Shown here piece by piece: positions 1 through 61,051 of a stretch of DNA of 64,000 nt. Position 1 is the stretch's first letter. Every line of letters starts with the position of its first letter. Both the position numbers and the translations under genes were made by a program. Source of the stretch: Fimicolochytrium jonesii (Eukaryota); assembly GCF_025526975.1 (NCBI RefSeq), contig NW_026515682.1, forward strand, positions 496,001 to 560,000. The letters are read 5' to 3'. Below the pieces are notes generated by a model. The model searched no databases. It was not told where the DNA came from and was given only the letters and a program-made list of their open reading frames with translations.

Positions 1-2872
1 ATGCGTCTGGTCTGTGGCCATCGCCAAACACCACCAAACGCACAATCAAGAGAAAATACTTGGTGCTTAGGACATCCTGATTGTGCACTTTCATCCGTAG
101 TGGTCGTCTTCCAGGAATCCCAAATGGCGTCCAGTCTTGGTTGATACATTCGGGGTTGGGGCAAACCACCAATCCATGGACGTATTCCATTCTTCCCTTT
201 CTAGCTTGCCACGGCCGAGACAACAGCCGACGTCGGATGTTTTTCTTCACACGGCCGTGGCAGTCAGGGCACACGGACGACGTTCGATACTCATCCAGCA
301 AGTAGCATGGAATGCCGTTTCTCGCAAAGAGTGTGCGGAATCTGTTCCATGATGAGTTAGCATAATAGAATACATAGTAGATACCACCAATCTTGGTCAC
401 TCACCCCTTGGTCTTCGATGACTCCTGAAAGCGCATTGTTTTCCCGGCATCGCTCCAATCACCCAAGATGACCGAAAAATGCTTTCCATACCGGCGTCGC
501 ATGTTCTTAATGACCTTGCTCTCAGACTTTTGCCGCAGTGAGAACGCCTTGAATCTGCGAGCTACGTGAATCTCATCCTGGTAAAACTCATCCAGGGCGG
601 GATCTGGGATATTGATGGATGTCAGCCCATGTATTACCAAATTTGAAAATCAAAGTTGAAGTTGAACATCATACCCGCATGTTCGTAACCCACAATGAAC
701 GCTGAGAACGCCTTGATGTTCATGCTCTTGTGCGATGGAATATGTGATTCCATCTCAGCGATGCCGGCATTGATCTTTTGCTCTCTCATGTCTCTTTGAA
801 AGTACTGAGACTTTGTCTCGACCGCCCGTTGATTGGATGCGTATCTGGTATGGGGTGGTGCATTGTGAGAACGCTGCAACGGAATGTCGCCGCAACGGGG
901 ATGGTGGGGATAGGGGCGGTGGGAGCTGCAGCAAGAGACGGGGGGATGGTGGGCGGAGACGGGGGGCTGGCGGGCGGAGACTGGGGGCTGGCGGGCAGAG
1001 ACGGGGGGCTGGCGGGCGGAGACGGGGGGGGGGGGGGGGAGGTAGCGGGGACAGCAGTGCAGTAGTAATCAACTGAAACGTACCGAAATGGCCGCTCCTT
1101 CTTGATGTCTTGACAGAACAAGAGGTCACGCTTGCCCGGATCAATGCTGACGATGTTTGGAGCCTCCCTTAGTTCGGCGATGTGGTGCTCAAAATACAGC
1201 TGTTAGACTTCTTCCTGCATTTGGGCTTTGCTGCGCTTCCGGGCGCGATGGCCGTACTTGAGCCCTGGCTTCTTGAAGTGGATGGTAGCGGAATACCCGT
1301 TTGTGCTGATTGACCCATCAAATTTGAGACCAAGCTTCTTTCGATGCTTGCAGACCTTGTCCTAAAATCCGTCATTCAGCAAGGTAATCAGATTGAATCA
1401 AGCACAGAAGGGTACAGACTTAACTTACATTCACATTGAGAAACTGCCCCCGCATCTCCTGCTTGCGTTCATCGGTGAATTTCCCCATGCGATGGTGGCC
1501 CAAGGCCAGGATATGAGTGGTTAGGATCTTTGTGTCGATCCGAACAGATGACTGGATTCGAGATTTGCGCAGCGGGATAGCGAAAAACAGCCGCATTCCA
1601 AGGCGCTCATAGAGGCGTGAGAGCTCACAATAGGCACCTGTGATGATGCAGGTGCGGACTATGATTAGACAAAAGAGGAAGCAGCGGGGGGGGGGGGGGG
1701 GGCGTAAATATACAGGATGTAACTCACCTAAATATGGCATTACGTCCACCGCAAGGCTGTACGCAAGCGCTTCATCCTGGGGAGGAAACAGAGCCCATAA
1801 CTTGTCGAGGACGGTCCGCTCAAGTCGTGTGAGGTGCGCAAACTCTTCTTGGGTTGGAAACTCTTCAAACGTCGCAAATTTTGTAAAGTGACGGACCCGC
1901 TGATAATAGTGTTGCCGCTGCGCTCGGTTGACTCCAGCTCTAAGGGGATGCAGTGCGACTTGCTTCAAACCAAGCCTTTCGTTGACGTAGCGCAGAAACA
2001 TTTGCATGAAATGCTCTTATACGTTAACTTTGAGGTTTGTGAGGATGCTCGTAGCCGTGTACGCTGCGGTCTGTTGTCAATACCGCATGCGGATGGGGGC
2101 GAATCCGTGAACATCACAGTAGTCTTGAACCCATGGATGCAACTCTCGCGCGATCACCGGATTGCCGTTGTAGCCTGGATTGTTGAGCAGCTCAAACATC
2201 ACACTGATGTGCTTGTCAGTGATGTCCGGGAAATCACGTAGAGGATGATCAGCAGCGGTGGGCAGACGTGGTAGTCAGGACATTGTTATGGGAAATATTA
2301 TGGGAAATATACAGTGTACCTCAAAAACTCACCAAGGTAGTGCTTGAGAAAGAAGGTCGTGTGGCGCGCAGGGACTGAACATTGCCGATGAATGTTGTCA
2401 GGCGCTCCCTTTGAGCTTGATTCTGATTATGGATGACTTGGTGAAGGGAAACCTTGGTGCCGGCATGTGTTTGCGGGCGGGGTCGTTGAACTGGTGGTGG
2501 TGGCGGGGGTTCAAGCACCAGGGATCCACCCGGTGTGCTGGGAAAACGGAAAGGGATGGGCGCGGGGAGGTTCGGTGGGCGCTGCAGACCCCCGTCCACG
2601 GGTGAAAGCCCTCGCTGCTGCTGGTGCTGTTGCCCGTCTTCATCGCCGGAGCTCTCGCTAACCATGTCTGGAATTGCTTGGGGCAAGTGACGCTGGACAG
2701 AAGGTGGGAAATCGAATCACGGGGGTTGCATTGGTGTCTGCACAGCGGTTGGCGGATTTATGGGCAGCCGCGGGATAACCGGAGCAACCTTCCTCCTCTT
2801 CCGCCGTGGTGTGGTTGCTCTCGTAAAGAAGCCACCCCACCGGTGCCCCTGGAGCGCCTTGTGTGATGACAT
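1..2872 (-). pseudogene. Fanzor1 (TnpB-like RNA-guided RuvC nuclease) copy A, 7 exons, degenerate; 3' end runs just off the window start
   Basis: Spliced translation gives PRRKRRKV NLS, LFFAIPLRKSRIQSSVRIDT, FDGSISTNGYSATIHF, RuvC-I IVSIDPGKRDLL, FRYASNQRAVETK, VILGDWS, RuvC-II LLDEYRTSSVCPDC and RuvC-III HNQDVLSTK. Lesions: CGA>TGA at 2717-2719, 1-bp deletion near 2375, TAA at 1203-1205. Confidence 0.9.
941..1038. repeat. ~21-bp GC-rich tandem repeat in Fanzor intron 4
   Basis: About four GGGGGCTGGCGGGCGGAGAC-like units. The same repeat occurs in copy B at about 26876-26947 as the reverse complement. Confidence 0.85.
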
Positions 2873-3153
2873 GATGGCCGTGCTGTGCCGTGCTGTGCAG
2901 GCAGGTGGTGAGAGCAAGGGGCCTGCTCTCGAGGAGGATCCAGGACTCTCGCTTATTTGCGAAGCGCTGAAGGCTTTCAGAGACTGGCTGGGGGTTTGCC
3001 TTGAATGTGCGAGGGTGGAAGTGTGCGCAATTGCGCGCAATTGTAAGAATGAGCTCGGTCTCGGCGGTCTGTAATTTGTCTGCTCACGACCATGTAGAAG
3101 GTAGAAGTCTGCAGACGCGGAGCCCCAGGGCACGGTGAGCGACACCCGCGCCC

Positions 3154-3311
3154 GCGCTAACGTGGCTTCACAGGCGTTAGCACCCACCCTGCGCTAACGT
3201 GGCTTCACAGGCGTTAGCACCCACCCCGCGCTAACGTGGCTTCACAGGCGTTCGCACCCACCCTGCGCTAACGTGGCTTCACAGGCGTTAGCACCCACCC
3301 CGCGCTAACGT
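3154..3311. repeat. 37-bp tandem array of hairpin-forming units (4 copies plus a partial)
   Basis: GCGCTAACGTGGCTTCACAGGCGTTAGCACCCACCCY starts at 3154, 3191, 3228 and 3265, with a partial at 3302. Each unit has an internal inverted repeat GCTAACG...CGTTAGC. Confidence 0.95.
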
Positions 3312-3614
3312 CACAAGTCCAGCGCTAACGTGTGTGCGTGTCATTACGGCGCCCGCAGGATGGAGACACGCTGGGCGAGGTCTGGACGGGCAGCTCAGGC
3401 CTCCAGCCGCCGGAGCTTCACCGCGAGGTCCGGTCCATCACGTTCGCCCGCGCTACTGGAGCAAGCCCCTAGCCACATCGGACTCTTGTGCGCCAAACTC
3501 GCCTATTGATGAGGCCTTTCTGCACAGGCAAGGTCTACAAAATCTACGCAGGCGGGGCAGGCAAGGTCTACAAAATCTACGCACGAGGGCCGGCTGCTGC
3601 TGGGGGCGGCGCAG

Positions 3615-4195
3615 CTATTCGTCTTCATCTGGGAGGCCGTATTTCCGGATGGCCGCGGCCGTCGCCAGGGGCAGCGTCACAACAGCCGTGTGGCAACTGC
3701 CGCCGGACGTGTCAAGCACCGCCGTTCCGTGGAGCTTGTCAGACATCCACGTCCACATGCAGTCGGGCTGCAGCACCAAGCAGAAGCCTTGCTCTGGCAG
3801 CGCAAATATCCACTCGCCGACGACGGTTTCGGAGCGGCGGCGTAGCCTGCCACCCATTGCGTGCATAGCTTGCGGGCCTGAAGCTCCTCCGGAAGCTCCT
3901 CCTTGGGGGTCAGCTTCCATATGGCGCGGCCTGTGTGCGGGTTCAGCTCGCTGGCTACGCCGTCGTCCAACCGGTCGGAGTGAACGACCACTTGATAGTT
4001 GGTCGTCGCGAACAGCGGGGCAAACTCATCGGAGTGTGGCCCGTACACCTTTGGCATGGACATCATCAGGTAGGCCGCCGCGGTGGGGTTGCGTTTGGTG
4101 AGCTCCTGCAGCAGTCGCTTGGTGAACGCCTTTTCCGTGGCGACGAGAAACTTTGCCAAAATGTCAGCCCCTCCTTTGATTGAATAGTGCCACGT
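3615..4195 (-). pseudogene. Tet/JBP-like 2OG-Fe(II) dioxygenase, C-terminal catalytic half (frameshifted, cut off by the Gypsy insertion)
   Basis: FATTNYQVVVHSDRLD (HxD at 3974-3982), then after a frameshift GEWIFALPEQGFCLVLQPDCMWTWMSDKLHGT (distal His about 3730). The frame continues across the ACGT target-site duplication into the 13056-13229 reading frame. Confidence 0.65.
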
Positions 4196-5267
4196 TGTGG
4201 TGGTGGCCGGCAGAAGCGTGTCAAATACGGGGTTACGGTCGGGTGTCGGGAAAAATAAGCTGCTGGTCTCTCAATAGCACAAGAAGAGATCTCAAGCGAG
4301 AGCGTTGTCTTGCCACCTTAATATCCAGGTGCTTTGAAAGGAGTCCTTCTTCTAATACGGGGTCAGGAATTACGGGCACGGGCACGAAATACGGAATCGG
4401 AATATCTGCGGGTTTGACTACAAAACAAAACAACGGGGTTATCCAGTCTCACTCTCAGCTCTTCTTACGAGATTCCTGAACTATCAAGTCCTCGGCGACG
4501 TCAGCAAAGTACAAGTCACGACACTCGGGGTCGTCTTGTCTAAGCTTTCCGGGTCTATGAGCGCGCCTTGAAGATCTATCAGAAACTGTAAGAAGTCGTC
4601 GGGAGTAAAGAAGTAGAAAGCTCTGTTGTTGATCGGGATCTGTGTTCTGCGTATCGTACAAAGGTCTGGGGAAAACGCGCGGGTTTTTATCTGGATTTTT
4701 CTAGGCTACGGGATTTTGTCGAAGTCCAAACTCTCTACTAGTCTTCTCTAGAGGATTTAGCTACGTCGGGGTCTTTTTCTCTTTTCCTGCGGCGGTCTAC
4801 GTAGTTTTTCCTTTTTCCATTTGCAATTTTGGCGCTGATACAGCCTTATCGCTAATCTTTTCTCGGGGTTTTCTGCAACGTTCGGCGTATATGGCCACCG
4901 GAAATTGGTTTTCTCGTTTCGAGGTGATTTCTTCAGCGTTTCGGGCATTGTGGGAGCTTCTGGTTGGTTAAGAGGCGGGTCGAGGGTGCTTTCATGTGTG
5001 CCATCCTCTCCTACGCCTACATTTTTGCATGTCAGTCGTATCCGAGGACAAAACATCGTCGAGAAGCAAGGTTTCGGTAAAGATAGTTGTATTTGGTAAT
5101 CATCGGAGTGTCGGGAACGCGAGTGTGTCGATTTATTGTCGGAAGTTTTGACGATATTTTGACGTTGTCATATAAAGGTGATTTCATTCGCTCGTCGAAG
5201 ATTCTAGGCGTATAATCAGCGTCAAAATTTTATCGATTTCATGCGCAGTTTGAAGCGCAATACTACT
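4196..5267 (-). repeat. 3' LTR
   Basis: Direct repeat of 11976-13051, roughly 35 differences by manual count. A purine tract (CAAAAGGAAAGA-like on the minus strand, about 5268-5281) lies just inside it. Confidence 0.95.
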
Positions 5268-5298
5268 TCTTTCCTTTTGTCAAATATTGATGTCCTCA

Positions 5299-8200
5299 TC
5301 AATTCTCGTCCGTAATTTTGTCTTCTTCGTCTGTTTCTTCTTCGTCTTCGGCGTTGCCATCGACTATCGGTTGTGTCTGGGTTCGAGTTCGAAATATCTT
5401 CAATCGGTCTCCGGCTACAGGTTTGCGTATCGTTGTCTGGTCTAATTCTTCGATATAATACGTGCCGTTGTTGTTGGGTTTGGTAATTCTGTAGGGTCCA
5501 AACCATTTGTTGTCAGTCTTGCCGGTTTGTTGAGTCAATAGCTTCGTGTTGTGCAGGAGAACTATGTCGCCGGGTTCAAAAGGTCGGTTTCTAATTCGGT
5601 GTCGTTTCTCCCAATACTTCTTGTTTGCTCTTTGGCTTGCGATTAGTCGCTCTGTCGCTAGCTTCAGGTCTTTGTCTCTGTATTGGAATGTTCAATGCGG
5701 TGTTGTAAAAATGTCTCGGTTGTCATGGGTTGTTGAAGATTTGGTACTGTCATCCATGTTTCATACGTAAGTTCGATAGGTAGTACGGCGTCTCTTCCAT
5801 AAATCAGGTAGAAGGGTGTAAACTTTGTCGTTCTTTTCGCAGTAACTCGATCTGCCCATAATGCAGCAGGGAATACGGTTGGCCATTCTCTCGGAGCCGG
5901 TGCGGTTCGAATAAGACGTTCGATAATCGGGGCATGTCCTCTTTCTACTAATCCATTCGCTTGCGGGTGATATGCAGTCGTAATTCGGTGTTTGACACCG
6001 TATCGCTCGGTAAGATGTTGTATCATTTTGTTGACGTTTTCGGGTCCACCATCGGATACTAGGTTTTTGATTGGTCCGTGTCAACAGAATACTTCTTCGT
6101 ATAAGAACGCGGCAATCTTGTCTGCAGTCAGCTTGCCTCTGATCATTCGTCCTTCAGGGTAACCGGTTGCGTCGTCTCGTAAAATCATTCCTCCTTCAAT
6201 TGCGTTCGTTCCTTTTGTGATAAATACAAAGTCTAGTCCACATTTCTGAAAGGGTCGTGTCGTTCGAATTTCGATGTAAAGCGGTTCAAATTCACGTCGC
6301 AGGTCTCTGAATTGGCAGTTGTGGCAGGATTGAACGTAGGCCTTTACTTCTTTGTACAGTCTTGACCAATAGTAGCGTTGTTGTATCTTTCGGAATGTCG
6401 CAAGGATGCCTCGATGTCCTCCTCCTTCCTTGCTTTTGTGCATGAATTGAATAATTTCTTCTTGGTCTTGTTCATTCCCGATAATTTGCAGGGGTGGTTT
6501 CAATCTCCGTTTCGTAAGAATGAATGATTGTCTTGTAGGGCGTATCGGGTACATCGGTTTCGGAATTTTCTTCGCTGGCTAGGGTACTTGTATCGCATTG
6601 GTACGGTCATATCGGTCAGGTATTGACGAATTTCATTCAAATCACTTTTCCATTCGGTTGTGGCTGAATTGACTCGTAATACATGCATTTCCGAATTGTC
6701 GGAGTCTTCGTTTTCAGTGTCGGTGTCATTGTCTGCTCGAGGTTTTCTCGAAAGTCCGTCCGCAGGGTTCTTCTCTCCTTTGATATGTTTGCTTTCAAAG
6801 TCGAATAGCATTAACTGCGCTACCCATCGCATTATGGTGCTGTCGGGGAATTCGGGTTTTTGTAGTAGTTGAATCAAGGGTTTGGCGTCAATCCAGAGCT
6901 TGAAACGTCTGCCCCAAACGTAAGTTCGTAGTTTGCGAACTCCTTTGTAGGCTCCAAGTAATTCAAGTTTGACTATCGGGTCGGTATTTCGTTGCTGTTC
7001 GGTAAACAATCCACTTTCGAATCGTATCGGTCTTTCTCTTCCTTCGGAATCAACTTGGGAGAGTATCGCTCCCCACGAAATGGGTGTAGCGTTGGTCGTA
7101 ATAATGAACGGGGGTGCGTCTTCTTCGTAGTTCGGCGCAGCTAATACCTTGGCAGCGACGAATTCTTGTTTTAACGTATCCATACAGGTCGGTTGCTTGG
7201 TCGTCCATTCGAATCGGGCGTTTTTCCTGTACAACTTGTACAGGGCGTCAGCTTTCTTAGCAAAGTCTTTGATCCAGGCGCGGTAGAATAGAATAAGTCC
7301 GAGGAATGCTTGTACTTTGGTCAGGTTCTGGCAAGGGGGCCAGCTGGTGATTTTTCGGATCTTCAATTGTTCGGGTGCCCTTCCGTCGTAACTGCAGACT
7401 ATGCCTGCGAAACTTGCTTTCGACATTCCCCAGCTTGATTTCTCGCCGGAAAACGTGAGTCCTGAATCGATCATAAGAATAAATACTTTCTTGCAGTCGT
7501 CCATGTGGTCTTGTACGAATTTGCGAATGTTAGGTTTCACGTGTGTCTCATCTCAGTATTTCGGTCCTTTGATGCCCGTATCATTGACATATACGCTGAC
7601 GATGTCGGGTTTGAGGGATTCGAAAACTTTGTTGACTACTCGATGAAATTGAGCTACTGAATTGATTCCTCCTTGAGGGAGTCGGGTAAGTTGGTATAAT
7701 CCAAACGGCGTAAGCATGGCTGTAAGGTCTCTTGATTCGGGGTGTAGGGGTACTTGATCATATCCGGAATACATGTCTGCCATAGACAAAATCGAACGTT
7801 CAGCAAATTCTTGAGCGAAAACTTCTGCGATCGGCGCACATCCGGCATCTCGTATTGTCACGCTGTTGAGCATTTGTACATCTTGTACGAATCGATAAGT
7901 TCCGTTCTTCTTGGGAACGAAGACCCAGGGGTTGCGGTAGGGTCCAAATGAAGGTTCCAACAGTCCTGCGTCTCGTTTCGTTCGGAGTAGGTCTGTCGCG
8001 ATCTTTGTCATCTGCGGGGGTAATCGGTGTGGTTTAACCATCCAGGGCGTATGCGGAATCGTATGAATCTTGACAGGTTCTTCAATGTGTGGCTTCAATG
8101 TTCCTCTTTTGCGGTCGTTGAAAGCAAAAGCCATGTCGTATTTGCGCAATAGTCATAAGAACGCAGCTCGTTCTTCGGTAGTCAAATCTTCTCCGAAAGT

Positions 8201-9969
8201 ACGCAAGTATTCTTGCCCATTGAATCGGTTTTGTCGTACGGTACTTCTGGCGGGTGTCTCGGTAATCGTAGGTCTGGGTAAAGCTTCAGGTCGAATGCCT
8301 CCGGGCAAGGGTTGTGCTAGGGGCTTGATCTTCTTTGCAATGGGCTTGAATTTTGTTTGTACTTGCACGGAGTATAATTCTTCTTCAGAATCGGAGTCGG
8401 AGTGGTATTCGGAATAGGTTCGTCGTCGACTGGGCTGATACAGTTCCTCATAATCGATGCTGTAATCACTGTCGGAATCTGAAACAAGACTTTCTTCTGT
8501 GTCGGATTCTTCGGATAGCATTGGCATATCGTCCATGATTGACTGCTGTCGGTAGGTAAACGCTTGTACATGGTACTCGATTGATTGTTCGTAAGCTTCT
8601 TCAACGTCGTGTTCTGAATCCTGTTTGTTGTCGGTCGTAATCGTGTCGGTAGGTTCTTCAGTGACGTTTCCTTTTGTCGAATCATATTCTTCGCTGTCCG
8701 TTTCGGTCTCATAGTACTGGATCATGTACGATCGCATTTGTAGGGGTCGTCGGAGTTTGTGTCTGTAAAGCATGTCGATATCTTCGAGGTATTCGGGATG
8801 AACCCATCGTTTTATGTCTTCAGGTACGTGTCCAGAGGTTAAATCCCATACTTGGCTGGTGCGGCGAGGAATTGGGCGCTTTTGGCAGAGTCTGGGTCAA
8901 ATATACGACACCATACACTTCCATCATCGCAATTCTTCTCTTCTAATCGGGTAATGCGGCGGTAAGGTCTTCCCAGAATCAAATCGTGACTGAGGGACTC
9001 AGAACTGACAAAACAGGCGGTCGAGCAACTGATGGATGCAATAGAAATCTTAATGTCGTAAACGACACCATTAATTCGACTGGGTCTCCCCCCCATATTC
9101 TTAAATGTAATGTTTGCAGGAATGGTCGTTTCGATCGGAATGTTTAGTGCTTCGAATAAACGTAGCGACATTAGATTCACTTCGGCTCCGGAATCTAATA
9201 GTGCAACGATCAAGTTCGAGTACTGGTTGATTTTAACGATCGCGTGCAGGCTGATTCCACTTAGAGTCGGGGTCTTATAATGTTCCGTTGCGATTTGTCG
9301 AAACATCATCACTTCTCCTTCATCCATCTCTTCAGACTGAATGTTGTACACGTTTTTGAGGTACTGCTGAGGGCGTGCTGAATGTTGAATGGCGTTCACG
9401 TTGAACGACATTTGGGCAACTCGTTCGTCACGGGCTTTCTTCTGCTTTTCTCGATCACTTTGTTTCTTGATTCTTTCTTCATACTGGTCGATTGGTACAC
9501 GGTGTTGTTGTAGATCGGATGCAACGGATTTTCGAAATTCGGGACTGAGAGTCATCAGTTCCGGGAAGGTGATGCCAATATTGACATTCTTGTAAAGTCT
9601 GCATTTGATCGCGTCAACGGGATGATTGCCTTGGTCTGCAATGTCGGGATAAAACTTGAACTTCGGCTGTCTTCGCTTGGGTCGTTCTTCATCCGTATCG
9701 GTCTCAGTATCAGTTTCCATCGGCGTAACAGGTCGATCGTCAGTTGGCCGGTCTCCAATCGGACGGCATTTCTTTTTCTCTCCTGGTTTCAGGATATCTC
9801 TTCCAGCGAATTTCTCGGTTGGCTCGGGTGGGTAATTTTCTCTTTCGGACGGTGTCATCTGCATCTTCCGTATCGGTTCCAGCTCTGGCGGGTGCTTGTC
9901 CACTTTGGGGTCGGTTTCCGTCAGCTGGATCAGCAACAGCAGGTCGCTTCGGATCGCGGGCTTGGGCAA
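5299..9969 (-). pseudogene. Gypsy pol: aspartic protease, reverse transcriptase, RNase H, integrase (fragmented)
   Basis: ALLDSGAEVNLM (protease); DMYSGYDQVPL, RLPQG and YVND (RT, mutated YVDD); RNase H ...HIKGEKNPADGLSR; integrase H-x-GHRG...CHNC, TAYHPQANGLVER and WFGPY. Confidence 0.93.
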
Positions 9970-10318
9970 TAGTCGTATCGAAATGAATGGGATCGTCCCA
10001 GTTCGTAATGTTCCAAATCGTATAGGTCAAGTCTTCTGCATGTTCTTCAAGATAATCTCGGATTTCGGATGAGCGTTCGGAGGTTTCACGGGTCTTTTTC
10101 TTGCCGTCATTTCGCAGCATAAACGAATTGATTGAATGACTGTAGGATCTTTGATTGGCGGAAGTGTTGCGATTGCGAAGTACGGCGGCTTTGGCATCTT
10201 CGAAAACTTTCTTAATCCCTCCTCGTCCGATGTTCAAAGGGATTTCTTGTCCGGGTACTCCAATGGTCGTATTGTGAGGGTACGCAATTCGTCCTTGTCC
10301 GTTAAGAACTAGTTCTTC

Positions 10319-11588
10319 TCAGTTCTGAACCTCAGAAAAGTCTCTGCAAAATCTGCGCTGGTGTCCTTCTTGATCACAATAAACACATCGCAAGGGTCGA
10401 ACATTCGCATTGCCGGTACTCGTTGAGCTACTGCCTTGCGAATCGTTCGCAGGCGGAAGTCGGGTCGCAGGAGTCAAGCTCTGCAGGATTCGGTTCTGGC
10501 TAGTCTGCAACTGGGCCATTCGTTCGGTCATTTTGCGTACTGCTCGGTCAAGTTTACTCTCGGTCTGCAATACTTGTCCTTGTACGAAGTTCAGCTGGTC
10601 ACTAACGGTCGGGTTGGTAATACCGGGGATCGTAAGAATCGGTTTCTGAACTGTCATAGATCGCGCGTCGGAATCGGGTTGCTTGATAACTGTCGTAAGT
10701 TGAGAAAGCGCAGCAACTAGTTGCTTCGGTGATGGCTTCCATAACTCGGCTAACGGAGGGTAACTGAGTTGGTCGCAAGTGGGTTCCACGTTCAGCAGCG
10801 AGTCTTCTGGCTTGTTGGAGAACTCGTTTGTCGAAGCCGGGTTCGTCTTTCCACGGGATCAGAAGCAAATTGATCTTTTCTTTGTCAGCGACCCCATCGA
10901 TTCTTGCATATCCATAGGCCATTTCGTTGATAAATTCTGCAACGTTGGCAGTGTTCCGTTTGACATGGTCTCGTTGACTGAGAGCCCATTGTTCGAGGTT
11001 GTTGAAAGTATGGCGAGTTTGAAAGGAATCAAAGTTCAATATCACCTCTTCAGTAAACGTCACCCAAGTTGGTTCTTCTCTCCATCGAGTATATTTGGTT
11101 ATGTCAAGCGATTGGAAACTAGGCATACTACAAAGCAGCGGTCGAAGGCTTGGTTGCGAATACTGGATGAATGTCTGCATACATCGTTTGTGTTTCAATT
11201 CCACGATTTGTCGCTCCTCCTGATTAGCAATAGCAGGATCTCGCGGGTTGTACGGACTGCGAAGTGTGGTGTGCAGAGGGTTGAGGATGATGCTCGGGTA
11301 CTGGGCGTCAGGTTCATATCCAGCGTCGTTAAGTTGAGCATAGAATAGGTCGAGTTTCTCTTGTACATCTCGTCCATCGAACTCTATAGCTCCAGGTTGT
11401 CCTATCATAGGTAAACCTTTTGAACTAGCAACTCAAAGTAGCATAGCGAACTGGTTGGCAGTCACAGGAAACATCGGGTTGTTTGCCCCATAGTCAGGAG
11501 GCGGGTTAGGCGGATTGTTCAGGTTCGGGTTGGGATCTGGATTCGGGTCAGGATTCGAATTATCGGGCGGCGGATTAGCGTCTGCCAT
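10319..11588 (-). pseudogene. Gypsy gag with CCHC zinc knuckle (interrupted)
   Basis: ATG at 11588, Pro/Asn-rich N-terminus, early stop, FDGRDV motif and CVYCDQEGHQRRFC knuckle at about 10345-10390. Confidence 0.85.
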
Positions 11589-11950
11589 TTTGTCAAGAAA
11601 GTTGCTATTACTTGAAAAATGCGAAGATGTCTAAAATAGACGGTCGAAGATTGTCTCTAAAAAGGAGTCGGTTGTCGGAGTACGAAAGTGCTGACGTCAA
11701 AGAATGGCGCAGCAGAATGTACGTGTGAAAACGCGCTTTTGCATGTCGAAACAAGGGGTAGGCTGTCGAAAAGTCGGGCGGCGATGCGCTGTCGAGCTGT
11801 CAAAAAGCAGCTGTTTTTGGTAGATAGCGAGTCGAATAACTAGCGTATCGATTTTCGTCGGTTTTTGTTGTACGGTAGGTACAAAGTCTATACGGATAAG
11901 CAGGTTTAAAGGATGTCTGAGCGATAGAATCTCTTTTCGTCGAAGAAAAG

Positions 11951-11970
11951 GACTCCTGGTAGGATCGCCA
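11951..11970 (-). other. Primer-binding site, probably for tRNA-Arg(ACG)
   Basis: TGGCGATCCTACCAGGAGTC lies 5 nt inside the 5' LTR. Its complement GACTCCTGGTAGGATCGCCA resembles eukaryotic tRNA-Arg(ACG) 3' ends (from memory). Confidence 0.75.
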
Positions 11971-11975
11971 GTAAA

Positions 11976-13051
11976 TGTGGTGGTGGCCGGCAGAAGCGAG
12001 GGTCTGTCAAATACGGGGTTACGGTCGGGTGTCGGGAAAAATAAGCTGCTGGTCTCTCAATAGCACAAGAAGAGATCTCAAGCGAGAGCGTTGTCTTGCC
12101 ACCTTAATATCCAGGTGCTTTGAAAGGAGTCCTTCTTCTAATACGGGGTCAGGAATTACGGGCACGGGCACAAAATACGGAATCGGAATATCTGCGGGTT
12201 TGACTACAAAACAAAACAACGGGGTTATCCAGTCTCACTCTCAGCTCTTATTACGAGATTCCTGAACTATCAAGTCCTCGGCGACGTCAGCAAAGTACAA
12301 GTCACGACACTCGGGGTCGTCTTGTCCTCTCCGGGTCTATGAGCGCGCCTTGAAAGTCTATCAGAAACTGAAAGAAGTCGTCGGGAGTAGAGAAGTAGAA
12401 AGCTCTGTTGTTGATCGGGATCTGTGTTCTGCGTATCGTACAAAGGTCTGGGGAAAACAGGCGGGTTTTTATCTGGATTTTTCTAGGCTACGGGATTTTG
12501 TCGAAGTCCAAACTCTCTACTAGTCTTCTCTAGAGGATTTAGCTACGTTGGGGTCTTTTTCTCTTTTCCTGCGGCGGTCTACGTAGTTTTTCCTTTTTCC
12601 ATTTGCAATTTTGGCGCTGATACAGCCTTATTGCTAATCTTTTCTCGGGGTTTTCTGCAACGTTCGGCGTATACGGCCACCGGAAATTGGTTTTCTCGTT
12701 TTGCAGGTGATTTCTTCAGCGTTTCGGGCATCGTTGGAGCTTCTGGTTGGTTGAGAGTCGGGTCGGGGGTGCTTTCATGTGTGACATCCTCTCCTACGCC
12801 TACATTTTTCGCATGTCAGTCGTATCCGAGGACAAAACATCGTTGAGAAGCAAGGTTTTGCTAAAGATAGTTGTATTTGGTGATCGTCGGAGTGTCGGGA
12901 ACGCAAGTGTGTCAATTTATTGTCGGAAGTTTTGACGGTATTTTGACGTTGTTGTATAAAGGTGATTTCATTCGCTCGTCGAAGATTCTAGGCGTATAAT
13001 CAGCGTCGAAATATTATCGATTTCATGCGCAGTTTGAAGCGCAATACTACA
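11976..13051 (-). repeat. 5' LTR
   Basis: TGTAGTA...CACCACA termini on the minus strand; direct repeat of 4196-5267. Confidence 0.95.
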
Positions 13052-13743
13052 ACGTCCCCCTGGCATATCCCGAGTGCTTGACGCCACGACAAAGCCCGGC
13101 GGCGTGCATTGTGCCCCTTGAAGCCTTCCATCGAACCAGAGTGGGCCGGGATCCACAGGACTCGACGATGAGCCGCAGCCGCAGGTCATGTTCGCGACGA
13201 CCCGCGCTATTGTACGAGATTGTGGCCACAAGGGCGCCGTGCTCGTCGCGGATGTAGATGTCCGCCCCCCCCCCCCCCCCCCCCCCCCCCGGGGTTCAAT
13301 TCGCTCAAGCCCATCCAGGCCCCTCGCCTTCTCCGGCCTCTTCCTAAACCCCGCATAGACCATCTTGCCCTGCCAGCCATCGCACGAGGCGGGCGTTGGC
13401 ACCACGATGTGAACAGCCGGGCGGCTACCGAGGGCCGGGGGTCGACGGACAAGTTGGCCGCGGTAAGACCGCCATCGGTGATCGCAGCGATGATGTCGGA
13501 CTGGAGCCCAATGTGGTGCTTGGCGCGCTTCTTGTGGGGAAGGGACCGCATTGGCCTATTGGTCCACCAGCCCCAAAGGGTGGAATTGTCTTGCTTGATC
13601 TTCTTTGAAAAAAGGCCAATGGCCTTGCCCTTGTCTTCTAGGCTAGCGTCCCGGGCGGCAAGGCCGGAGCCTACCAGCAGCGGATACAAAAAGGCCACCG
13701 TGTCGCCGAAGATAGCTGTGGCGCGGCCCTCGCCCATGCCCAT
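13052..13743 (-). pseudogene. Tet/JBP-like dioxygenase, N-terminal half
   Basis: GKMVYAGFRK (13339-13370) resembles the G-x-M-x-x-G-W-R-K motif of fungal Tet-like oxygenases. The frame ...HSGYARGT joins WHYSIKGGADILAKFLV... across the retroelement. Frameshifts at about 13400 and in the C-run at 13265-13290. Confidence 0.55.
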
Positions 13744-13860
13744 CAGAAGAGCCTTGACCGTGGTGGGGGGCGACGGGGGCGTGGCCTGCAGCGCGGTGGA
13801 GGGGAAGGGGAGGGGGAAGGTGTTAGCGGCTCAGGCCGCGCGATCGCAATCACCGACGCG

Positions 13861-14096
13861 GCACAGCAGCATGCCCAGGCAGCGCATCCCATACCGGTCG
13901 ACCCCCCACAAGCGGCGGTCGTGCTCAAGATCAGCGCACAGCAGCATGCCCAGACAGCGCACCCCATGACGGTTGACCTCCCGCAAGCGGCGGTCGTGCT
14001 CAACATGGGCTGCGGGATCGGCGCATGGCAAACACGTCCAGACAGCGCACCCCATGCCGGTCAACCTCCCGCAAGCGGCGGTTGTGCTCAGCATGG
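13861..14096 (+). repeat. ~75-bp tandem repeat x3 (25-aa coding-like unit AQQHAQTAHPMxVDLPQAAVVL)
   Basis: GCACAGCAGCATGCCCAG...CAAGCGGCGGTCGTGCTCAA units at 13861, 13936 and about 14022. Confidence 0.85.
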
Positions 14097-14199
14097 ACTG
14101 CAAGCCCAGGCGGTCAACACCCGGCAGAGACGCCCACGGCTACACAGCAGCCACTCACCTCGTCAGCGCTGAGCATTCTCGGAGCGTGCTCTGTGTGAG

Positions 14200-15728
14200 T
14201 TGCCGGGCTTGAGCTGGAAGGAAGTAGGCGCCGGCCGGGGGGTACAAAGCCACAGGCGGCCCCGAGGCCTCAAAGCTGCTCGACGAAACCATGCACCTAT
14301 TCAGAAAGCTCGCGCTCAAAGGCCAATGGCGGGAAAGGGGGCAAGAAGGCGATCAGGCAAAACGTGGCAACTTTGGGGAAGGCAGCGGACCGCATATGAG
14401 AAGGCTACAGGGGCGTCGCAGACGACACTTACGCGCATGCAGGAAGCGGCAAAGCAGGTATGAGTGGGGTGAGTGGACGTTGCCGCAGTGCTGCGCTAAC
14501 GCGGGGTATCTGCGCAGGGGAGACGAGAGGCAAAACGACGGGCACCCAAACCCAAGCTGGCCGCACCGAAACTGGCCAAACGGGAGGAGTACTTGCTCGA
14601 CAACACCGAGGCGCGCGAGCACTGGCAGGTGGCGCCGCTGACGAGCATCGGATACTATGCAAAGGGTGTCCCAAAGTCATGGGCGGAGGTGGAGAGGGGG
14701 AAGGGCCTGCCGAAGCCTGCCTCAGTGGTGCCCTATGCGCGCGCCACCGGCCACGGCGAGATGCCCGGCTTCTGGACCAGCCGCCACAGGCTGTGATGGA
14801 CGAGTGCGCACGCCTGGCCCGGTATGGCGATGTCGGCCCCTTCACTCTGCCGCCGACCGTGCTTGGCCTCTACCCAAACCTGAAGGAGGCGGGGAGCGGG
14901 TGGATGGGCGCGCCTGACATGGCCAGCCGAGTGGGGAACATGGGCGGCAGGCCGAAGAGCGCAAGCAATTGGCTGTCGCTGACCACGATATACACGTACG
15001 TCGACACCCTGGCGAAGTCGGCGGCCGTGACCCGGAGGGAGACAGGGCAACCCCTACGACGCATGTGGACGGCGAGGCGCTGCTGATTGGGGAGGGGTGT
15101 TTGGCTCCCGCATACATTCACCCGGTAAGTGCCGTACATTCTCGGGGCACTGCCGCACATCCCGCGCTAACGAGCCCCCTCCACAGTAGCAGCAGAACAC
15201 GACGTCGCGCACTTCATCCTCCACAGAAACCGCAACTATTTCGCCTCGTACTGGTATGGCCGGACGGATGGCCGGCATTACTTTTACGACTCCATGTTTG
15301 GCAAGCGATCGGGGAAAATGAACGCGGCCGTATGGACCGAGGACATTCGCTGGCGCATCGTGGGCAGGGTGCGGTACATGATCCACTGTGGGTTTATGCC
15401 GGCAGGTGGGCCCACGTCCCCCCCCATCTATGTGTCGCACCCCCGCCAGCAGGACATGGACTCGTGCGGGGTTCTGTTGTGCTGCATGGCCAGCTGGATT
15501 ATTCACGGCACGGTGGGGGAGCGCAATGCAAAGGAGGCGCTTGTGCTCCCGGCCACGTATTCCACCAGTCAGGTCAACGTTGCGCGCTGGACGATCATGT
15601 GGACCATTCTGCACGGGAAAGCCTTGAACATCACGGCCGTGGGCAAGGATCGAGCGGTAAGACCGCGCGCCCCTGTTGTTGATGGATGGCAAATGCTAAC
15701 CCCCCCCCCCCCCCCCCGCCCCTGCTGA
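14200..15728 (+). pseudogene. Ulp1/C48 family SUMO-peptidase-like gene, multi-exon and degenerate
   Basis: NWLSLTTIYTYVDTL, HYFYDSM (Asp at 15288) and PRQQDMDSCGVL (Gln, Cys at 15465). The expected catalytic His position reads NYF (TAT at 15237, possibly CAT>TAT). GT-AG introns at 14458-14517 and about 15125-15186. Frameshifts present; start uncertain. Confidence 0.7.
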
Positions 15729-16173
15729 CAGGGCACGGAAGGCTGGGCAGCCCCTATGGGCGACGTGACCAGCTGGGTGGCCGGTGACGGAAACCACCGG
15801 CGGCCACAAGTGCAGCGACCTGCGCGGCAGAGGTGAAAACCGCAGAAGCCGTGGCAGGGAGCGCTGGCGGCAGGGAGCCGTCGGTCAAAGTGGTCGGCGG
15901 TGATGGTTGAGAGCTCGCCGTCCATCAAGGAAAGAAGAGGGAGAGGGATCCGTCGGCGGAGGCGGTGAGCGCGAAGAGGGTGTAGACGGGAAAGGGCGGC
16001 TGGGCAATAGCGTGACATATCCCACGCTATCGCGGCCACCATATTTAATACGGCACCGCTGAGTCACCCACGGATGCGCCACATTGATTTGTATGAAACG
16101 ATTAATGAAGCTATTCTGAAACGATAGCTTGCCGCCGCAAGATTTTTACTATGTAACAGATTTGCGAGGCGGT

Positions 16174-16306
16174 AAACGCTGTATTCTAAATTGAATCGAG
16201 ACCCTAACCCTAACCCTAACCCTAACCCTAACCCTACTTTGTAAACGTTGTATTCTCACTTGAATCAGGACTCTAACCATAACCCTAACCCTAAATTGAA
16301 TCAAGA
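16174..16306 (+). repeat. Interstitial telomeric (CCCTAA)n repeats within a duplicated ~69-bp unit
   Basis: (CCCTAA)5CCCTA at 16202-16236 and a degenerate tract at 16271-16294, each preceded by AAACGYTGTATTCT..TTGAATC. Confidence 0.9.
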
Positions 16307-22516: not shown

Positions 22517-22790
22517 TGTGGTGTGGAGGTTTTTCGGGGCGTTAGCCTGGCGTATGCGGCAGTGGATGAGACCCCGGCGCATCTACTAAAGAACGAGTCT
22601 ACATATAGCGCACATCTGTTAGAAGGATGTAGGGTTATTTGTGTGGTTTGATACCATTGGTTTGTACATCCTCATTGTTTACTCTGATCCATGTCCGCGA
22701 CGTCCGTGTCCCCCCACGTGACCGCATATTCCCTATTCCTTCTTACCTTCCCGCTGCCCTCTGATTCCTTCTTACCTTCCTACCACATCT

Positions 22791-23395
22791 GCGCCTGGAA
22801 TAGGGGCAGTCTCGCGGTACGCTCTCTCGCCTTCCGCAATCGCTTGGGGCAGCTTACCTCATAAACAAACACATCTCCTAACAGTGTTTTCACAATGGTG
22901 GACAGTACTTTTTCCTTAGGGTCCGCGCACTAGAGGCGCGAACCGGACTTTTTCTTCAGGGTCCTTTCGAACGGGTATAAAAGCAAACCAGTACTGACAT
23001 TCCCTCGCAGGCATGCGCCATCGCCCGAGACAGCTCGGAATAGGAGCAGCCTCGCGATACGCTACCTTCTTGACTCGCGATCGCCCGAGACAGCTCGGAA
23101 TAGGAGCAGCCTCGCGATTCGTTTGCCATTCTACGTCTGCCATTCTACGTCTGCCATTCTACGTCACAAACCCACTCCCATGCTCCCGCGATGACCTATG
23201 TACTCCGCCCCAACTAAGTCACATACTCCATTCACCAGGCAAATCACCATGACAGCATCAACGTCAAAGCCCCGTTCCGCAATCGCTTGGGGCAGCCCGG
23301 AATAGGGGCAGTCTCGCGATTCGCTTCACTCTTTACGACTTCCGCAATCGCTTGGGGCAGCCCGGAATAGGGGCAGTCTCGCGATTTGCTCTCTC
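22791..23395 (+). repeat. Dispersed/tandem ~48-bp hairpin-like repeats (period 60-65) in the Fanzor leader
   Basis: CGCAATCGCTTGGGGCAGCCCGGAATAGGGGCAGTCTCGCGATT and variants at about 22794, 23017, 23077, 23276 and 23341. Also (TGCCATTCTACGTC)x3 at 23124-23166. Confidence 0.85.
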
Positions 23396-23780
23396 GACTT
23401 CCTCAAGGCATCAGCATCCAATATGTTGCTCTAGCAATACGTTGGTCTAGCGGCACTACGCTCACCGGTGATGAAGCCACAACCATGATGGAACTGCTTT
23501 CTGACGAAGACTTCCATTACTTCACGCCGCCCACCTCCATCTCTGCTGAGATCCGATGATTATGGGTGAAAAAATGCGTGCAATTCATCAATCTCCCGAG
23601 AAGCGCATATTGATTCCCACATTTACGTAGCTTAGCTTTTTGCAAATCACTGTGGTTGGACTGCGTTTGGACCAACGTTGACATACTGTACTTTGCTGCT
23701 ATAGCCGTCACTCGCCTCCGGCGGCTCCCAATGTGTGAAGGGGAATAAAGTAACGAGTTCCACAATCAACCCCAGAGCTG

Positions 23781-23823
23781 CCCCACATCCTTTACACGCG
23801 TGTAAAAAACGTGGGGATCCCCA
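23781..23823. promoter_or_regulatory. Palindromic site upstream of the Fanzor gene
   Basis: CCCCAC-ATCC-TTTACACGCGTGTAAA-AAAC-GTGGGG, overlapping TGGGGATCCCCA. Identical in copy C at 61782-61824. Function unknown. Confidence 0.5.
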
Positions 23824-24096
23824 CTCTACTCTTCCTCACTCTTCGCGCTCCTCACGCTCTTGATTGCACCTCGTCATGGCCCCCAATTACATACCAACCC
23901 TCCTTCCCACCCCCCTTCCTTCCCAACGCAATTGTGAGCAGTAAGCATTCCCGGTTTCACCTTCAACCACCACCAGGTAACAACCGCAATTCCTCACCGT
24001 TCTCAGCCTCATTACCACAGCACTGACGCGAGTTCTTTGACACACAGCCATCACGGCAATCACCTGCAACACCTGTCTCGGCACAGCACAGCCATC

Positions 24097-27000
24097 ATGT
24101 CATCACACCAGGCGCTCCAGGGGCACCTGTGGGGTGGCTTCTTTGCCGGAGTTACCACACCACGGCGGAAGAGGAGGAAGGTTGCTCCGGTTACCCCTCG
24201 GTTACGTCTGCCAACCGCTGTGCAGCCAACCTCTGTGCAGACACCATTGCAACCCCCACGATTCGAGCTCCCACCCTCTGTCCATCGCCACTTGCCCCAA
24301 GCAGTTGCAGACATGGTTGGCGAGAGTTCCGGCGATGAAGACGGGCAGCAGCAGCAGCAACAGCAGCGAGGGCTTTCACCCGCGGACAGGGGCCTGCAGC
24401 GTCCGTTGAACCTCCCTGCTCCCATCCCTTTCCTTTTTCCCAGCACCCCGGGTGGATCCCTGGTGCTTGAACCCCCGTCACCACCACCCGCTCAACGACC
24501 CCGGCAGACACATGCAGGCACCAAGGTTTCGCTTCACCGAATCCATAATCAAAATCAAGTTCAAAGGGAGCGCCTGACAACATTCATCGGCAACGTTCAC
24601 ATCCTTGCGCGCCACACCACCTTCTTTCTCAAGTACTACCTTGGTGAGGTTTTGAGGTACACTGTATATTTCCCATGATATTTCCCATAACAATGTCCTG
24701 ACTACTACGTCTGCCCACCGCAGCTGATCATCCTCTACGCGATTTCCCGGACATCACTGACAAGCACATCAGTGTGATGTTTGAGCTGCTCAACAATCCA
24801 GGCTACAACGGCAATCCGGTCATCGCGCAAGAGTTGCGTCCATGGGTTCAAGACTACTGTGATGTTCACGGATTCGCCCCCATACGCATGCGAAATTGCC
24901 AACAGACGGCAGCATACACGGCTCAGAGCATCCTCACAAACCTCAAAGTCAACGTACAAGAGCATTTCATGCAAATGCTTCTGCGCTACATCAACGAAAG
25001 GATTGGTTTGAAGCAAGTCGCACTGCATCTCCGGAGAGCCAGAGTCAACCGAGCGCAGCGGAGACAGTATTATCAGCGGGTCCGTCACTTTACAAAATTT
25101 GCGACGTTTGAAGAGTTTCCAACCGAAGAGGACTTTGCGCGCCTCACACGACTTGAACGGACTGTCCTTGACGAGTCATGGGCTCTGTTTCCTGCCCAGG
25201 ATGAGCCGCTTGCATACAGCCTTGCGGTGGACGCAATGCCATATTTAGGTGAGTTGCATCCTGTATATTCACCCCCCCCCCCCCCCCCCAGGCTCGTGCG
25301 TGGCTGTGCAGTGCCTCGCTTGGTATGCCAACCTGGCCGAGTGGCTGCCCGCCGGGACCCCGGCCGACGTGGTTTGCGATGCGCTGTTGGCGCTGGGCGC
25401 CCGCACGCTTGGCTCCCGCGGCCCCCCCACCCCCCCCCCCGGCCTCGACGACGCCGCCAGTGCGCGCACAGCGGGCCCGGGGCGCGACCGATGCTCTTGC
25501 CCACCGCCATGGCGTCAACGTAACCAGCGCCGCCGACGTGTTCGCCGCGCGCCGAACATAACGCGAAACCCCCCCCCCCCCCCCCTGCGGTGCCCTCTTT
25601 TGTCTAATCATGGTCTGCACCTGCCTCGCCTCATCACAGGTGCCCACTGTGAACTCTCGCGCCTCTATGAGCGCCGTGGAATGCGCCTGTTCTCCGCTAT
25701 CCCGCTGCGCAAATCTCGAATTCAGTCATCTGTTTGGATCGACACGCTGATCCTAGGCACTCATATCCTGGATGTTGGCCGACGTCGCATGGGGAAACTC
25801 ACTGATGAACGCAAGCAGGAGCTGTGGGGGCAGTTTCTCAATGTGAATGTAAGTCTGTATCCTTTGATGAAGAGGCGCGCGAAGGTCGGGTGGATGGCGA
25901 GACAGCCGGTGAGGATGCAGTCGATGTAGGATTGCGGGATCGGTGTGCACGGGGTCGGTGTGTGCGGGGCTGCCGGTCCCGTGCACGCGCTTGTGCGGGA
26001 CGACGGGGGCTGGAGCTCGTACACCCACACGACAACGGGCGCGGCGGGGGATGTGGTTGTGGTTTCAAACGGGTGTGAGATGGTGGGTGAAGATGGCGGG
26101 GTGTTGAAGTGGAGGATCTCGATGTCCTCCACTCTGACCGTTCCGCGGACGTAGTCCTTCTCGCGCTCGTTGGGTGGGTGTGCGGACGGTGCGGAGGCGC
26201 GAGTGCGGGTTGATGAGGGTGCGGCTCTTATTTCAATCACCTTGCTGAATGACGCATTATAGGACAAGGTCTTCAAACATCGAAAGAAGCTTGGTCTCAA
26301 GTTTGATGGGTCAATTAGCACCAACGGGTATTCCGTTACCATCCACTTCAAGAAGCCAGGGCTAAAGTATGGGCATCGGGCCCGGAAGCGCAGCAAGGCC
26401 CAAATGCGGGAAGAAGTCAAGCAGTTGTATTTTGAGCACCACATCGCCGAACTACGGGAGGCTCCAAACATTGTCTGCATTGAACCGGGCAAGCGTGACC
26501 TCCTGTTCTGTCGAGATATTGAGAAGGAGCGGCCATTTCGGTAAGTTTCAGTTGATTACTACTGCCCTGCTGTCCCCATCCCCCCCCCCCTTCCCCAACC
26601 CTCGACTTTGCGGAAGATGGTGCGGAGGTGTTTGCGGACGTTGACTTGGAAGGGGTGGTTCCCCTGTTTGCGTACACGGGCAACGAATCTGGGCGAGAAT
26701 CCTTGCGGATCTGGGCGAGGAGTTCGTTGATAGAGTTGGACGAGCACGGAGCTGTCGATGGGAACGCCGCCAATGACGGAGCAGCCGCGGTTGGTTTGCT
26801 TGTCGCCGTCGCGCGTCATATCGCTCGTCGCGTGGCCCATGTTGATGACCTGCATGACGGTGTCGAGGCCAACCCTGTCTCCGCCCCCAGCCCCCCGTCT
26901 CCGCCCCCCAGCCCCCCGTCTCCGCCCGCCAGCCCCCCGCCCGCCCGGAGAGACATGACAGAGCGGAAGATCAATGCCGGCGTTGCTGAGATGGAATCAC

Positions 27001-60730: not shown

Positions 60731-61051
60731 TCAACGCTGCTTTCGCAACAAGAGTTACCCGCGGCGTCGACTCTCTGGTACCCTATTTATCAACCCCAAC
60801 AATTTTGCAATCCCCGGCGTAACTCCCCGACTTTCCGAAACCACCTCCCGTACTTTGTTTAGAGTCTCACCCCTATTGCACCAATCCACAGGGTTTCCGT
60901 GCTTTTGTACATATACGCCCTGTATGGTCGGCGTTTTTCCGATTTTTTGTTTCGAATGTTCCTCCCCTACACATAGAAGATGAGGCGGGTTCGCCCAATC
61001 TGTTTAACGGACGGACCCAACTTGTACATAAACTTTCTGGCCCCCCCCCCC

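What the first reader, a model, noticed from the sequence alone, without database searches (positions are those of the whole stretch)
2873..16200. Fanzor copy A abuts a cryptic element carrying a Tet/JBP-like dioxygenase and a Ulp1 peptidase
Seen: copy A shares only about 20 bp upstream of its ATG with B, then enters unrelated DNA. With the Gypsy removed, this ~4.5-kb block has a hairpin array, a Tet-like gene co-oriented with and directly upstream of the Fanzor, a divergent Ulp1-like gene, and telomeric repeats at its far edge. Known: TET/JBP dioxygenases and C48 peptidases are cargo of large fungal DNA transposons (Kyakuja-Dileera-Zisupton; MULEs for Ulp1). Inference: this may be a composite element combining an RNA-guided nuclease, a base-modifying or demethylating enzyme and a deSUMOylase, i.e. 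a homing plus anti-silencing module. It could instead be simple nesting that replaced the Fanzor leader. No transposase is visible.
Basis: partly seen in the sequence, partly recalled or inferred. Interest (0 to 1): 0.8.

Follow-up and report, generated by a model that had tools for sequence, protein, structure and literature searches.

The report
Fanzor-TET-Ulp1 composite mobile element
In a chytrid fungus, the gene for an RNA-guided DNA-cutting enzyme (Fanzor) sits joined to genes for a likely DNA-demethylase-type enzyme and a likely SUMO protease, and this package likely recurs at several places in the genome, which would make it a jumping element that carries its own defence against gene silencing; this copy is broken.

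Summary
The window matches gene models of the chytrid Fimicolochytrium jonesii. Upstream of a SpuFz1-like Fanzor (copy A) lie a 37-bp array, a TET/JBP-like dioxygenase gene split by a Gypsy element, a divergent Ulp1-like gene and telomere-like repeats. The block is a multi-copy family: four further Tet/Ulp1 gene models lie on four other contigs. Three of these four are within two accession numbers of a Fanzor model (chance about 4e-5 under a uniform null). A Fanzor model on a sixth contig reads this same leader into its start, so the junction near 2890 recurs. All genes in this copy are dead. Repeats in the window mutate preferentially at CpG, which fits host methylation and an anti-silencing role. 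No transposase, terminal repeats or target duplication were found. The linkage rests on gene-model order, not on DNA, and both folds failed. The Tet gene also has three copies in Powellomyces hirtus, where I found no Fanzor. Each part is known transposon cargo; I found no report of the combination, or of TET-bearing transposons in chytrids.

The parts
1..2872 (-). Fanzor1 gene, copy A (intron-containing, SpuFz1-like; premature stops and frameshifts; 3' end and omegaRNA region lie outside the window)
   Evidence: family member P0044 vs PDB 8gkh E 4.6e-149, 44% identity to P0067
2873..3142 (-). A-type leader joining the cargo block to the Fanzor start; only about 20-35 bp are shared with copies B and C; also read by gene model P0064 on another contig
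3143..3311 (.). Tandem array, 4.5 x 37 bp, each unit with GCTAACG-N12-CGTTAGC; candidate protein-binding or subterminal array
3615..4195 (-). TET/JBP-like dioxygenase, 3' part: HxD at 3974-3982, second His at 3729-3731, Cys codon at 3693-3695 where relatives have the 2-oxoglutarate-binding Arg; frameshift near 3830
4196..13051 (-). Gypsy LTR retrotransposon inserted in the dioxygenase gene (LTRs 4196-5266 and 11976-13051, target duplication ACGT); not part of the family
13056..13809 (-). TET/JBP-like dioxygenase, 5' part (extent of homology; start codon not fixed); frameshifts near 13430 and in the 26-base C run at 13265-13290
13861..14101 (.). Three 71-nt repeats between the two divergent genes
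14196..14236 (.). Point at which the window copy lacks sequence present in P0002 (residues 474-699) and P0003 (residues 1-555 have no window match)
14237..15907 (+). Ulp1/C48-like peptidase gene, spliced: WL motif at 14970, Tyr codon at 15237-15239 where P0002 has the catalytic His, Asp at 15288, Gln and Cys at 15450-15467
16172..16306 (.). Probable far end: a 54-nt unit duplicated at 69-bp spacing, with (CCCTAA)n repeats; GC falls to about 0.40; a host NUDIX-like gene follows (named from its sequence motif, not from a search)

Best explanation
The block and Fanzor A are likely one non-autonomous composite DNA element (Ulp1-like gene, TET-like gene, repeat array, Fanzor1) that was likely copied as a unit to at least five loci, and the window holds a dead copy. 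Shown: the layout in the window, other copies of both cargo genes on four more contigs, a repeat of the leader-Fanzor junction on a sixth, and the decay of this copy. Inferred origin: an older Tet-bearing module, also multi-copy in Powellomyces hirtus, was joined 20-35 bp upstream of a Spu-1-like Fanzor start and replaced its leader. Inferred function: the dioxygenase oxidises 5-methylcytosine that the host lays on repeats at CpG, keeping the element expressed and slowing CpG decay; the peptidase removes SUMO or a related tag from silencing or repair proteins; Fanzor with its right-end guide RNA cuts empty sites and favours retention or re-copying. Movement would need a transposase in trans or Fanzor-triggered repair copying, as none is encoded in the parts seen.
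For: Adjacency: P0002 KAI8817536 / Fanzor P0047 KAI8817537; P0005 KAI8816868 / P0055 KAI8816869; P0003 KAI8826971 / P0058 KAI8826973, each pair on a contig of the same length. That is 3 of 4 within two RefSeq numbers of one of 57 Fanzor models over 9,767 numbers; P about 4e-5. Control that numbers follow position: P0030 equals window copy B (100% over 120 aa) and lies five numbers after the window's own Ulp1 model P0001. P0064 (KAI8819411, contig 615,915) begins with residues matching window 3087-2860 on the minus strand and continues as Fanzor. P0002 is collinear with 3389-4165, 13316-14195 and 14237-15907. No B/C-type leader lies beyond the far edge of the block, as a plain insertion would leave. 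Tet relatives keep HxD..H..R; Atlas scores 0.95 for a cluster with 2OG-FeII_Oxy_6 (15% of members) and 0.91 for one with Tet_JBP (16%). CpG-biased transitions: 13 of 20 assigned between the LTRs (P 0.0015), 30 of 63 between Fanzor A and C (P 2e-5).
Against: No DNA of the other loci could be read: distance, orientation, ends and flanks are unseen. The null assumes an even spread, and transposons cluster. One of four cargo models (P0004) is 24 numbers from the nearest Fanzor model, though the window's own Fanzor A also has no model in the list. Only about 5 of 53 Fanzor loci show the link; most Fanzor copies apparently move without it. The four Tet-adjacent Fanzors are no closer to each other (91.5%) than to the rest (92.0%) and do not group in a poorly resolved tree, which a single recent fusion would not predict. 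No P. hirtus Fanzor appeared among 50 hits and no P. hirtus Ulp1 among 3. Pfam gives no Tet hit and only E 0.13 for C48. No activity was measured.
Confidence: 0.66

Rival explanations
1. A separate Tet/Ulp1 element inserts again and again at one preferred site just upstream of the Fanzor start, so the link reflects targeting, not joint mobility.
For: It predicts the same junction and Tet-adjacent Fanzors scattered through the family, as seen. The Tet gene is multi-copy in P. hirtus, where no Fanzor was found.
Against: The displaced Fanzor leader should lie beyond 16306, but no B- or C-type leader sequence is there and host sequence follows. No target duplication of the 2890 region was seen at the far edge.
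Confidence: 0.13
2. The Ulp1-Tet-Fanzor form is the ancestral full-length element of the whole Fanzor family in this genome (a larger master may also hold the transposase), and the other copies are derivatives that lost or swapped the 5' part, as in the one-ended Fanzor Helitron2 elements of Chlamydomonas.
For: Tet-adjacent Fanzors are as diverged as the family overall. Leaders vary while the Fanzor part is kept, genes have introns, and foreign pieces sit in introns of B and C, as described for CRe-1,2,3 (PMC3627910 passages). P0003 has 350 extra residues resembling unnamed basidiomycete clusters (0.92-0.93).
Against: B and C share a distinct leader with no match in the block. No RepHel or DDE domain was found in P0002 or P0003. 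The closest characterised relative, Spu-1, is a 2.1-kb single-gene element.
Confidence: 0.13
3. One chance nesting was later spread by segmental duplication or ectopic gene conversion and the genes have no joint function.
For: All copies seen are decayed or partial gene models, and no ends are defined.
Against: Six different contigs are involved, cargo and Fanzor both differ by roughly 5-20% of residues between loci, and the Tet-adjacent Fanzors are not each other's nearest relatives.
Confidence: 0.08

Closest known systems
TET+ fungal DNA transposons (Kyakuja, Dileera, Zisupton, hAT7, IS3EU, PHISTA, EnSpm, ESTA, Plavaka, Helitron1/2; Kojima 2025, PMC12730594; parts 1, 3, 4 of 7 read, term searches, supplement searched)
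   Same: A multi-copy element carries a TET/JBP-like gene; anti-silencing is the proposed, unvalidated role; TET genes pass between transposon families.
   Different: Those are from rusts, mushrooms and Pezizomycetes and encode a transposase. The text has no 'chytrid', 'Ulp1', 'peptidase' or 'Fanzor'; the supplement lacks Fimicolochytrium, Powellomyces, Spizellomyces and Fanzor. Here there is a Fanzor, a C48-like gene and no transposase.
Spu-1 / SpuFz1 of Spizellomyces punctatus (Saito 2023, PMC10432273; section 7 and passages read)
   Same: Fanzor 44% identical, catalytic D383, E541, D606 kept, 4 of 6 TAM-contact residues kept (Q129, Q130, R291, Y345); many copies; no transposase; Gypsy insertions common.
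   Different: Spu-1 is 2.1 kb, one ORF, 30-nt inverted repeats. Here the gene has introns and about 130 extra N-terminal residues, no clear terminal repeat and kilobases of cargo. Saito notes 11 loci with further genes, naming only Gypsy; 'dioxygenase' and 'Ulp1' are absent from 9 searchable supplements (one PDF could not be read).
CRe-1,2,3 Fanzor1 Helitron2 elements of Chlamydomonas (Bao and Jurka 2013, PMC3627910; passages read)
   Same: Spliced Fanzor1, non-autonomous, variable 5' part with captured sequence.
   Different: No Helitron ends or RepHel shown here; no TET or Ulp1 cargo is mentioned in the passages seen ('Ulp1' 0 occurrences).
Ulp1-bearing transposons: Vandal/KIU MULEs and Ginger1 (PMC13317346, PMC2836005; passages read)
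   Same: A C48 domain as transposon cargo, tied to anti-silencing in Vandal elements, which act through short motifs in their own non-coding DNA.
   Different: No Fanzor or TET in the passages seen; plant and animal hosts; the role of the Ulp1 domain is stated to be unknown.

Membership tests
TET/JBP dioxygenase | HxD...H iron triad and downstream Arg | tested here: met
   Kept in P0005-P0008; the window copy has HxD and H but Cys at the Arg site
TET/JBP dioxygenase | Profile match to Tet_JBP or related family | tested here: inconclusive
   No Pfam hit; no PDB hit under E 0.4; Atlas 0.95 and 0.91 to clusters in which 15-16% of members carry the families
TET/JBP dioxygenase | Double-stranded beta-helix fold | tested here: inconclusive
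   AlphaFold2 failed, mean pLDDT 28
TET/JBP dioxygenase | Oxidises a methylated DNA base | not testable with these tools
   Needs an assay
Ulp1/C48 peptidase | His-Asp-Cys triad with oxyanion Gln, in C48 order (pattern recalled) | tested here: met
   P0002 has NWL, NHF, YFYDS, QQDMDSCG; the window has Tyr for His
Ulp1/C48 peptidase | Profile or fold match | tested here: inconclusive
   Best Pfam hit is Peptidase_C48 over the catalytic region, E 0.13, under cut-off; no PDB hit; fold failed, pLDDT 38
Ulp1/C48 peptidase | Cleaves SUMO | not testable with these tools
   Needs an assay
Fanzor1 | Homology to characterised Fanzor1 and RuvC D-E-D | tested here: met
   copy A keeps the three residues but has stops
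Fanzor1 | omegaRNA at the right end | tested here: inconclusive
   A's end is outside the window; B's downstream DNA folds no better than shuffles (z -0.3 to -1.0); no Rfam hit
KDZ / TET+ DNA transposons | Encodes a DDE or HUH transposase | tested here: not met
   None in the block or in P0002, P0003; unseen parts of longer copies remain possible
KDZ / TET+ DNA transposons | Defined termini and target duplication | not testable with these tools
   One end is outside the window and no genome is held
Spu-1 | Single ORF between 30-nt inverted repeats | tested here: not met
   Introns; best right-end versus leader match in copy B reached by 16 of 300 shuffles
Helitron2 (CRe-type) | Asymmetric terminal repeats, terminal hairpins, insertion after TTTT | tested here: inconclusive
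   The far edge does not fold and follows three T, not four; the 3' end is unseen

The most novel reading that the evidence does not exclude
A eukaryotic mobile element that couples an RNA-guided nuclease to its own DNA-mark eraser. The dioxygenase strips N6-methyladenine or 5mC from the Fanzor target motif and from the element, licensing homing in a heavily adenine-methylated genome, while the peptidase disarms SUMO-dependent silencing. Pointers: the two species in which the gene was found are two of three chytrids named with unusually high 6mA (1.84% and 1.43%; PMC11258239); the SpuFz1 motif CATA holds an ApT; fungal CcTET oxidises 6mA. Both species belong to one family, and two TAM-contact residues differ.
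Probability: 0.15. Interest if true: 0.88.

Novelty: new variant of a known kind. Interest (0 to 1): 0.63.

Why it matters
The natural role of Fanzor nucleases is open, and so is the role of transposon-borne TET genes. An element carrying both, next to about 48 sister loci without a seen cargo link in the same genome, gives a built-in comparison: methylation, expression and CpG decay of cargo-bearing against cargo-free copies. It also adds a divergent chytrid branch of TET/JBP-like enzymes, with three near-identical, motif-complete copies in Powellomyces hirtus that can be expressed and assayed on 5mC and 6mA.

Tried and rejected
Scans of metagenome and viral contigs for Tet and Fanzor relatives gave none. 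Both AlphaFold2 models were unusable, so no fold search was run. The protein tree of 47 Fanzor C-terminal rows was the quick fallback, 30 of 43 inner branches open; it neither shows nor excludes a Tet-linked clade. Three short cluster members (P0028, P0053, P0057) are unrelated peptides and were dropped from the Fanzor count; P0021 was left out because its accession was not looked up. A 30-nt likeness between DNA downstream of copy B and the Tet gene (2 of 300 shuffles, one of seven tests) had no protein-level support and was rejected. A giant-virus origin found no support. Terminal inverted repeats were not found for A, B or C. Literature searches for the combination; none listed a Fanzor element with TET or Ulp1 cargo, but most subscription papers and Repbase are not covered and Iyer et al. 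2014 was not read (known only through Kojima 2025). One search fetched an unrelated paper through a wrong id. Earlier scan notes held nothing on this genome or protein.
Full report
Source. No genome is held for the window. A search with the Ulp1-like exon returned three proteins of 163 candidates, all Fimicolochytrium jonesii gene models. One, P0001, is the window's own locus, and Fanzor model P0030 equals window copy B over 120 of 120 residues. The host is therefore this chytrid (Powellomycetaceae).

Anatomy. Three Fanzor copies lie in the window: A (1-2872, minus), B (from 24097) and C (from 61910), 85-93% alike in DNA. A matches B for only about 20 bp upstream of the start. B and C share another leader, which has no significant match in the block or at its far edge. 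The block holds a 37-bp array (3143-3311), a dioxygenase-like gene on the Fanzor strand, a Gypsy element inside that gene with an ACGT duplication, three 71-nt repeats, a divergent peptidase-like gene and a duplicated 54-nt unit with CCCTAA repeats at 16172-16306. The array has a 7-bp inverted repeat per unit but no unusual folding energy; its core also resembles this genome's intron branch-point motif.

Gene identity. The Fanzor family is close to SpuFz1 (E 4.6e-149), with the three RuvC acids kept. The dioxygenase search over 1.84 billion representatives gave three hits: two F. jonesii models and one Powellomyces hirtus protein whose cluster has three members on two contigs. These relatives carry HxD..H..R. 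The Atlas placed the P. hirtus domain next to clusters with 2OG-FeII_Oxy_6 (0.95) and Tet_JBP (0.91), each family on about 15% of members. Pfam and PDB profiles did not detect it and folding failed, so 'TET/JBP-like' is well supported but not proven. The peptidase has the C48 motif order, with His intact in P0002; the best Pfam hit is Peptidase_C48 at E 0.13. In the window the dioxygenase has three frameshifts, the Gypsy and Cys at the Arg site; the peptidase has Tyr at the His site; Fanzor A has stops. The copy also lacks at least 226 codons present in P0002 and P0003.

The decisive test. I could not read DNA, so I used accession order. The control shows that numbers follow position: P0001 (14-16 kb) and P0030 (27 kb) are five apart. 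Two Fanzor searches and two member look-ups gave 57 F. jonesii Fanzor models with accessions, about 53 loci; three unrelated short members were dropped and one model was not looked up. Of four cargo models outside the window, P0002 and P0005 are immediately followed by a Fanzor model, P0003 is two away and P0004 is 24 away. The chance of three of four within two is about 4e-5 under an even spread; clustering of transposons would weaken this. The window's own Fanzor A has no model, so misses occur. Independent of order, model P0064 on a sixth contig reads window 3087-2860 into the Fanzor gene, and P0002 is collinear across both cargo genes from 3389. The junction thus recurs. The cargo list is incomplete: the Ulp1 search covered only proteins over 294 residues, and the Tet search only 50% representatives.

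Results against. The four Tet-adjacent Fanzors are 91.5% identical to each other and 92.0% to the rest and do not group in a poorly resolved tree. This fits an old or ancestral composite, gene conversion among copies, or repeated targeted insertion, and not one recent fusion. No P. hirtus Fanzor was among 50 hits that did include Spizellomyces proteins at 42-47% (only 418-1332 residues and 7,994 candidates scored), so the link may be limited to F. jonesii. No transposase or terminal repeat was found.

Mechanism. Host pressure is visible in the sequence: transitions between the LTRs and between Fanzor copies are enriched at CpG (13 of 20 and 30 of 63 assigned; P 0.0015 and 2e-5), the pattern expected from 5mC on repeats (established knowledge; also reported for Phycomyces in PMC11258239 passages). 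I infer that the dioxygenase counters this mark, the peptidase counters SUMO-type silencing or tunes repair, and Fanzor favours retention by cutting empty sites, with mobility supplied in trans or by repair copying. None of these steps was tested. A bolder variant is 6mA as substrate: F. jonesii and P. hirtus have 1.84% and 1.43% 6mA, exceptional among chytrids, CcTET oxidises 6mA and the SpuFz1 motif is CATA. The two species are close relatives and two of six TAM contacts differ, so this is a lead only.

Comparison with the literature. TET genes in fungal transposons, Ulp1 domains in MULE and Ginger elements, and Fanzor capture by many transposons are all in print (passages or parts read, none in full). 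Ten searches and two supplement searches found no Fanzor element with TET or Ulp1 cargo and no chytrid TET transposon; coverage is limited to open papers, one supplement was unreadable and bioRxiv supplements are closed. It works like a TET+ transposon and like a Spu-1 element but fails a defining test for each (transposase; single ORF with inverted repeats), so it is filed as a new variant, not a member.

Verdict. A real, recurrent composite of known kinds of parts in an unreported combination. Interest 0.63; it would rise if DNA confirms common ends and the dioxygenase proves active.

Noticed in passing
window 22757-24096 and 61041-61909: Copies B and C share a second leader type: a common start motif, arrays of a roughly 45-bp repeat, a 35-bp segment present in opposite orientations, and an identical 56-bp stretch holding a strong palindrome at 23781-23816, a candidate true left end.
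   Followed up: partly
window 25290-25569, 25855-26235, 26597-26870 and 63736-64000: Foreign segments sit inside introns of Fanzor B and C, two of them at poly-C runs; one is shared by B and C, and a similar piece occurs in model P0025. This suggests capture or deletion at C runs.
   Followed up: no
protein P0093 (KAI8816659), next to Fanzor piece P0060 (KAI8816658): A tyrosine-recombinase-like domain (Pfam Phage_integrase E 6e-4, under cut-off) is fused to a Fanzor fragment; probably a DIRS- or Crypton-type element nested in a Fanzor copy, but a candidate mobiliser worth checking.
   Followed up: partly
protein P0003 residues 80-440: An unknown domain in the longest Ulp1-bearing model resembles unnamed basidiomycete clusters (Atlas 0.92-0.93, no Pfam), as does the Tet domain's top hit.
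   Followed up: partly
F. jonesii Fanzor family (P0009-P0066): About 53 loci of an intron-containing SpuFz1 relative with a proline-rich N-terminal extension and a basic stretch resembling a nuclear localisation signal; several models look complete (such as P0044), and the species is absent from the searchable Saito 2023 supplements.
   Followed up: partly
window 2871-3074 (+): A 67-codon protein-like frame runs antisense through the A-type leader, and the 37-bp unit resembles an intron branch point plus acceptor on the same strand; possibly the remnant of a gene cut by the fusion. No NCBIfam or PHROGs hit.
   Followed up: partly
proteins P0006-P0008 (Powellomyces hirtus): Three 607-aa copies about 94% alike with a complete dioxygenase motif: a young Tet-bearing repeat family in a chytrid, the best material for an assay.
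   Followed up: partly
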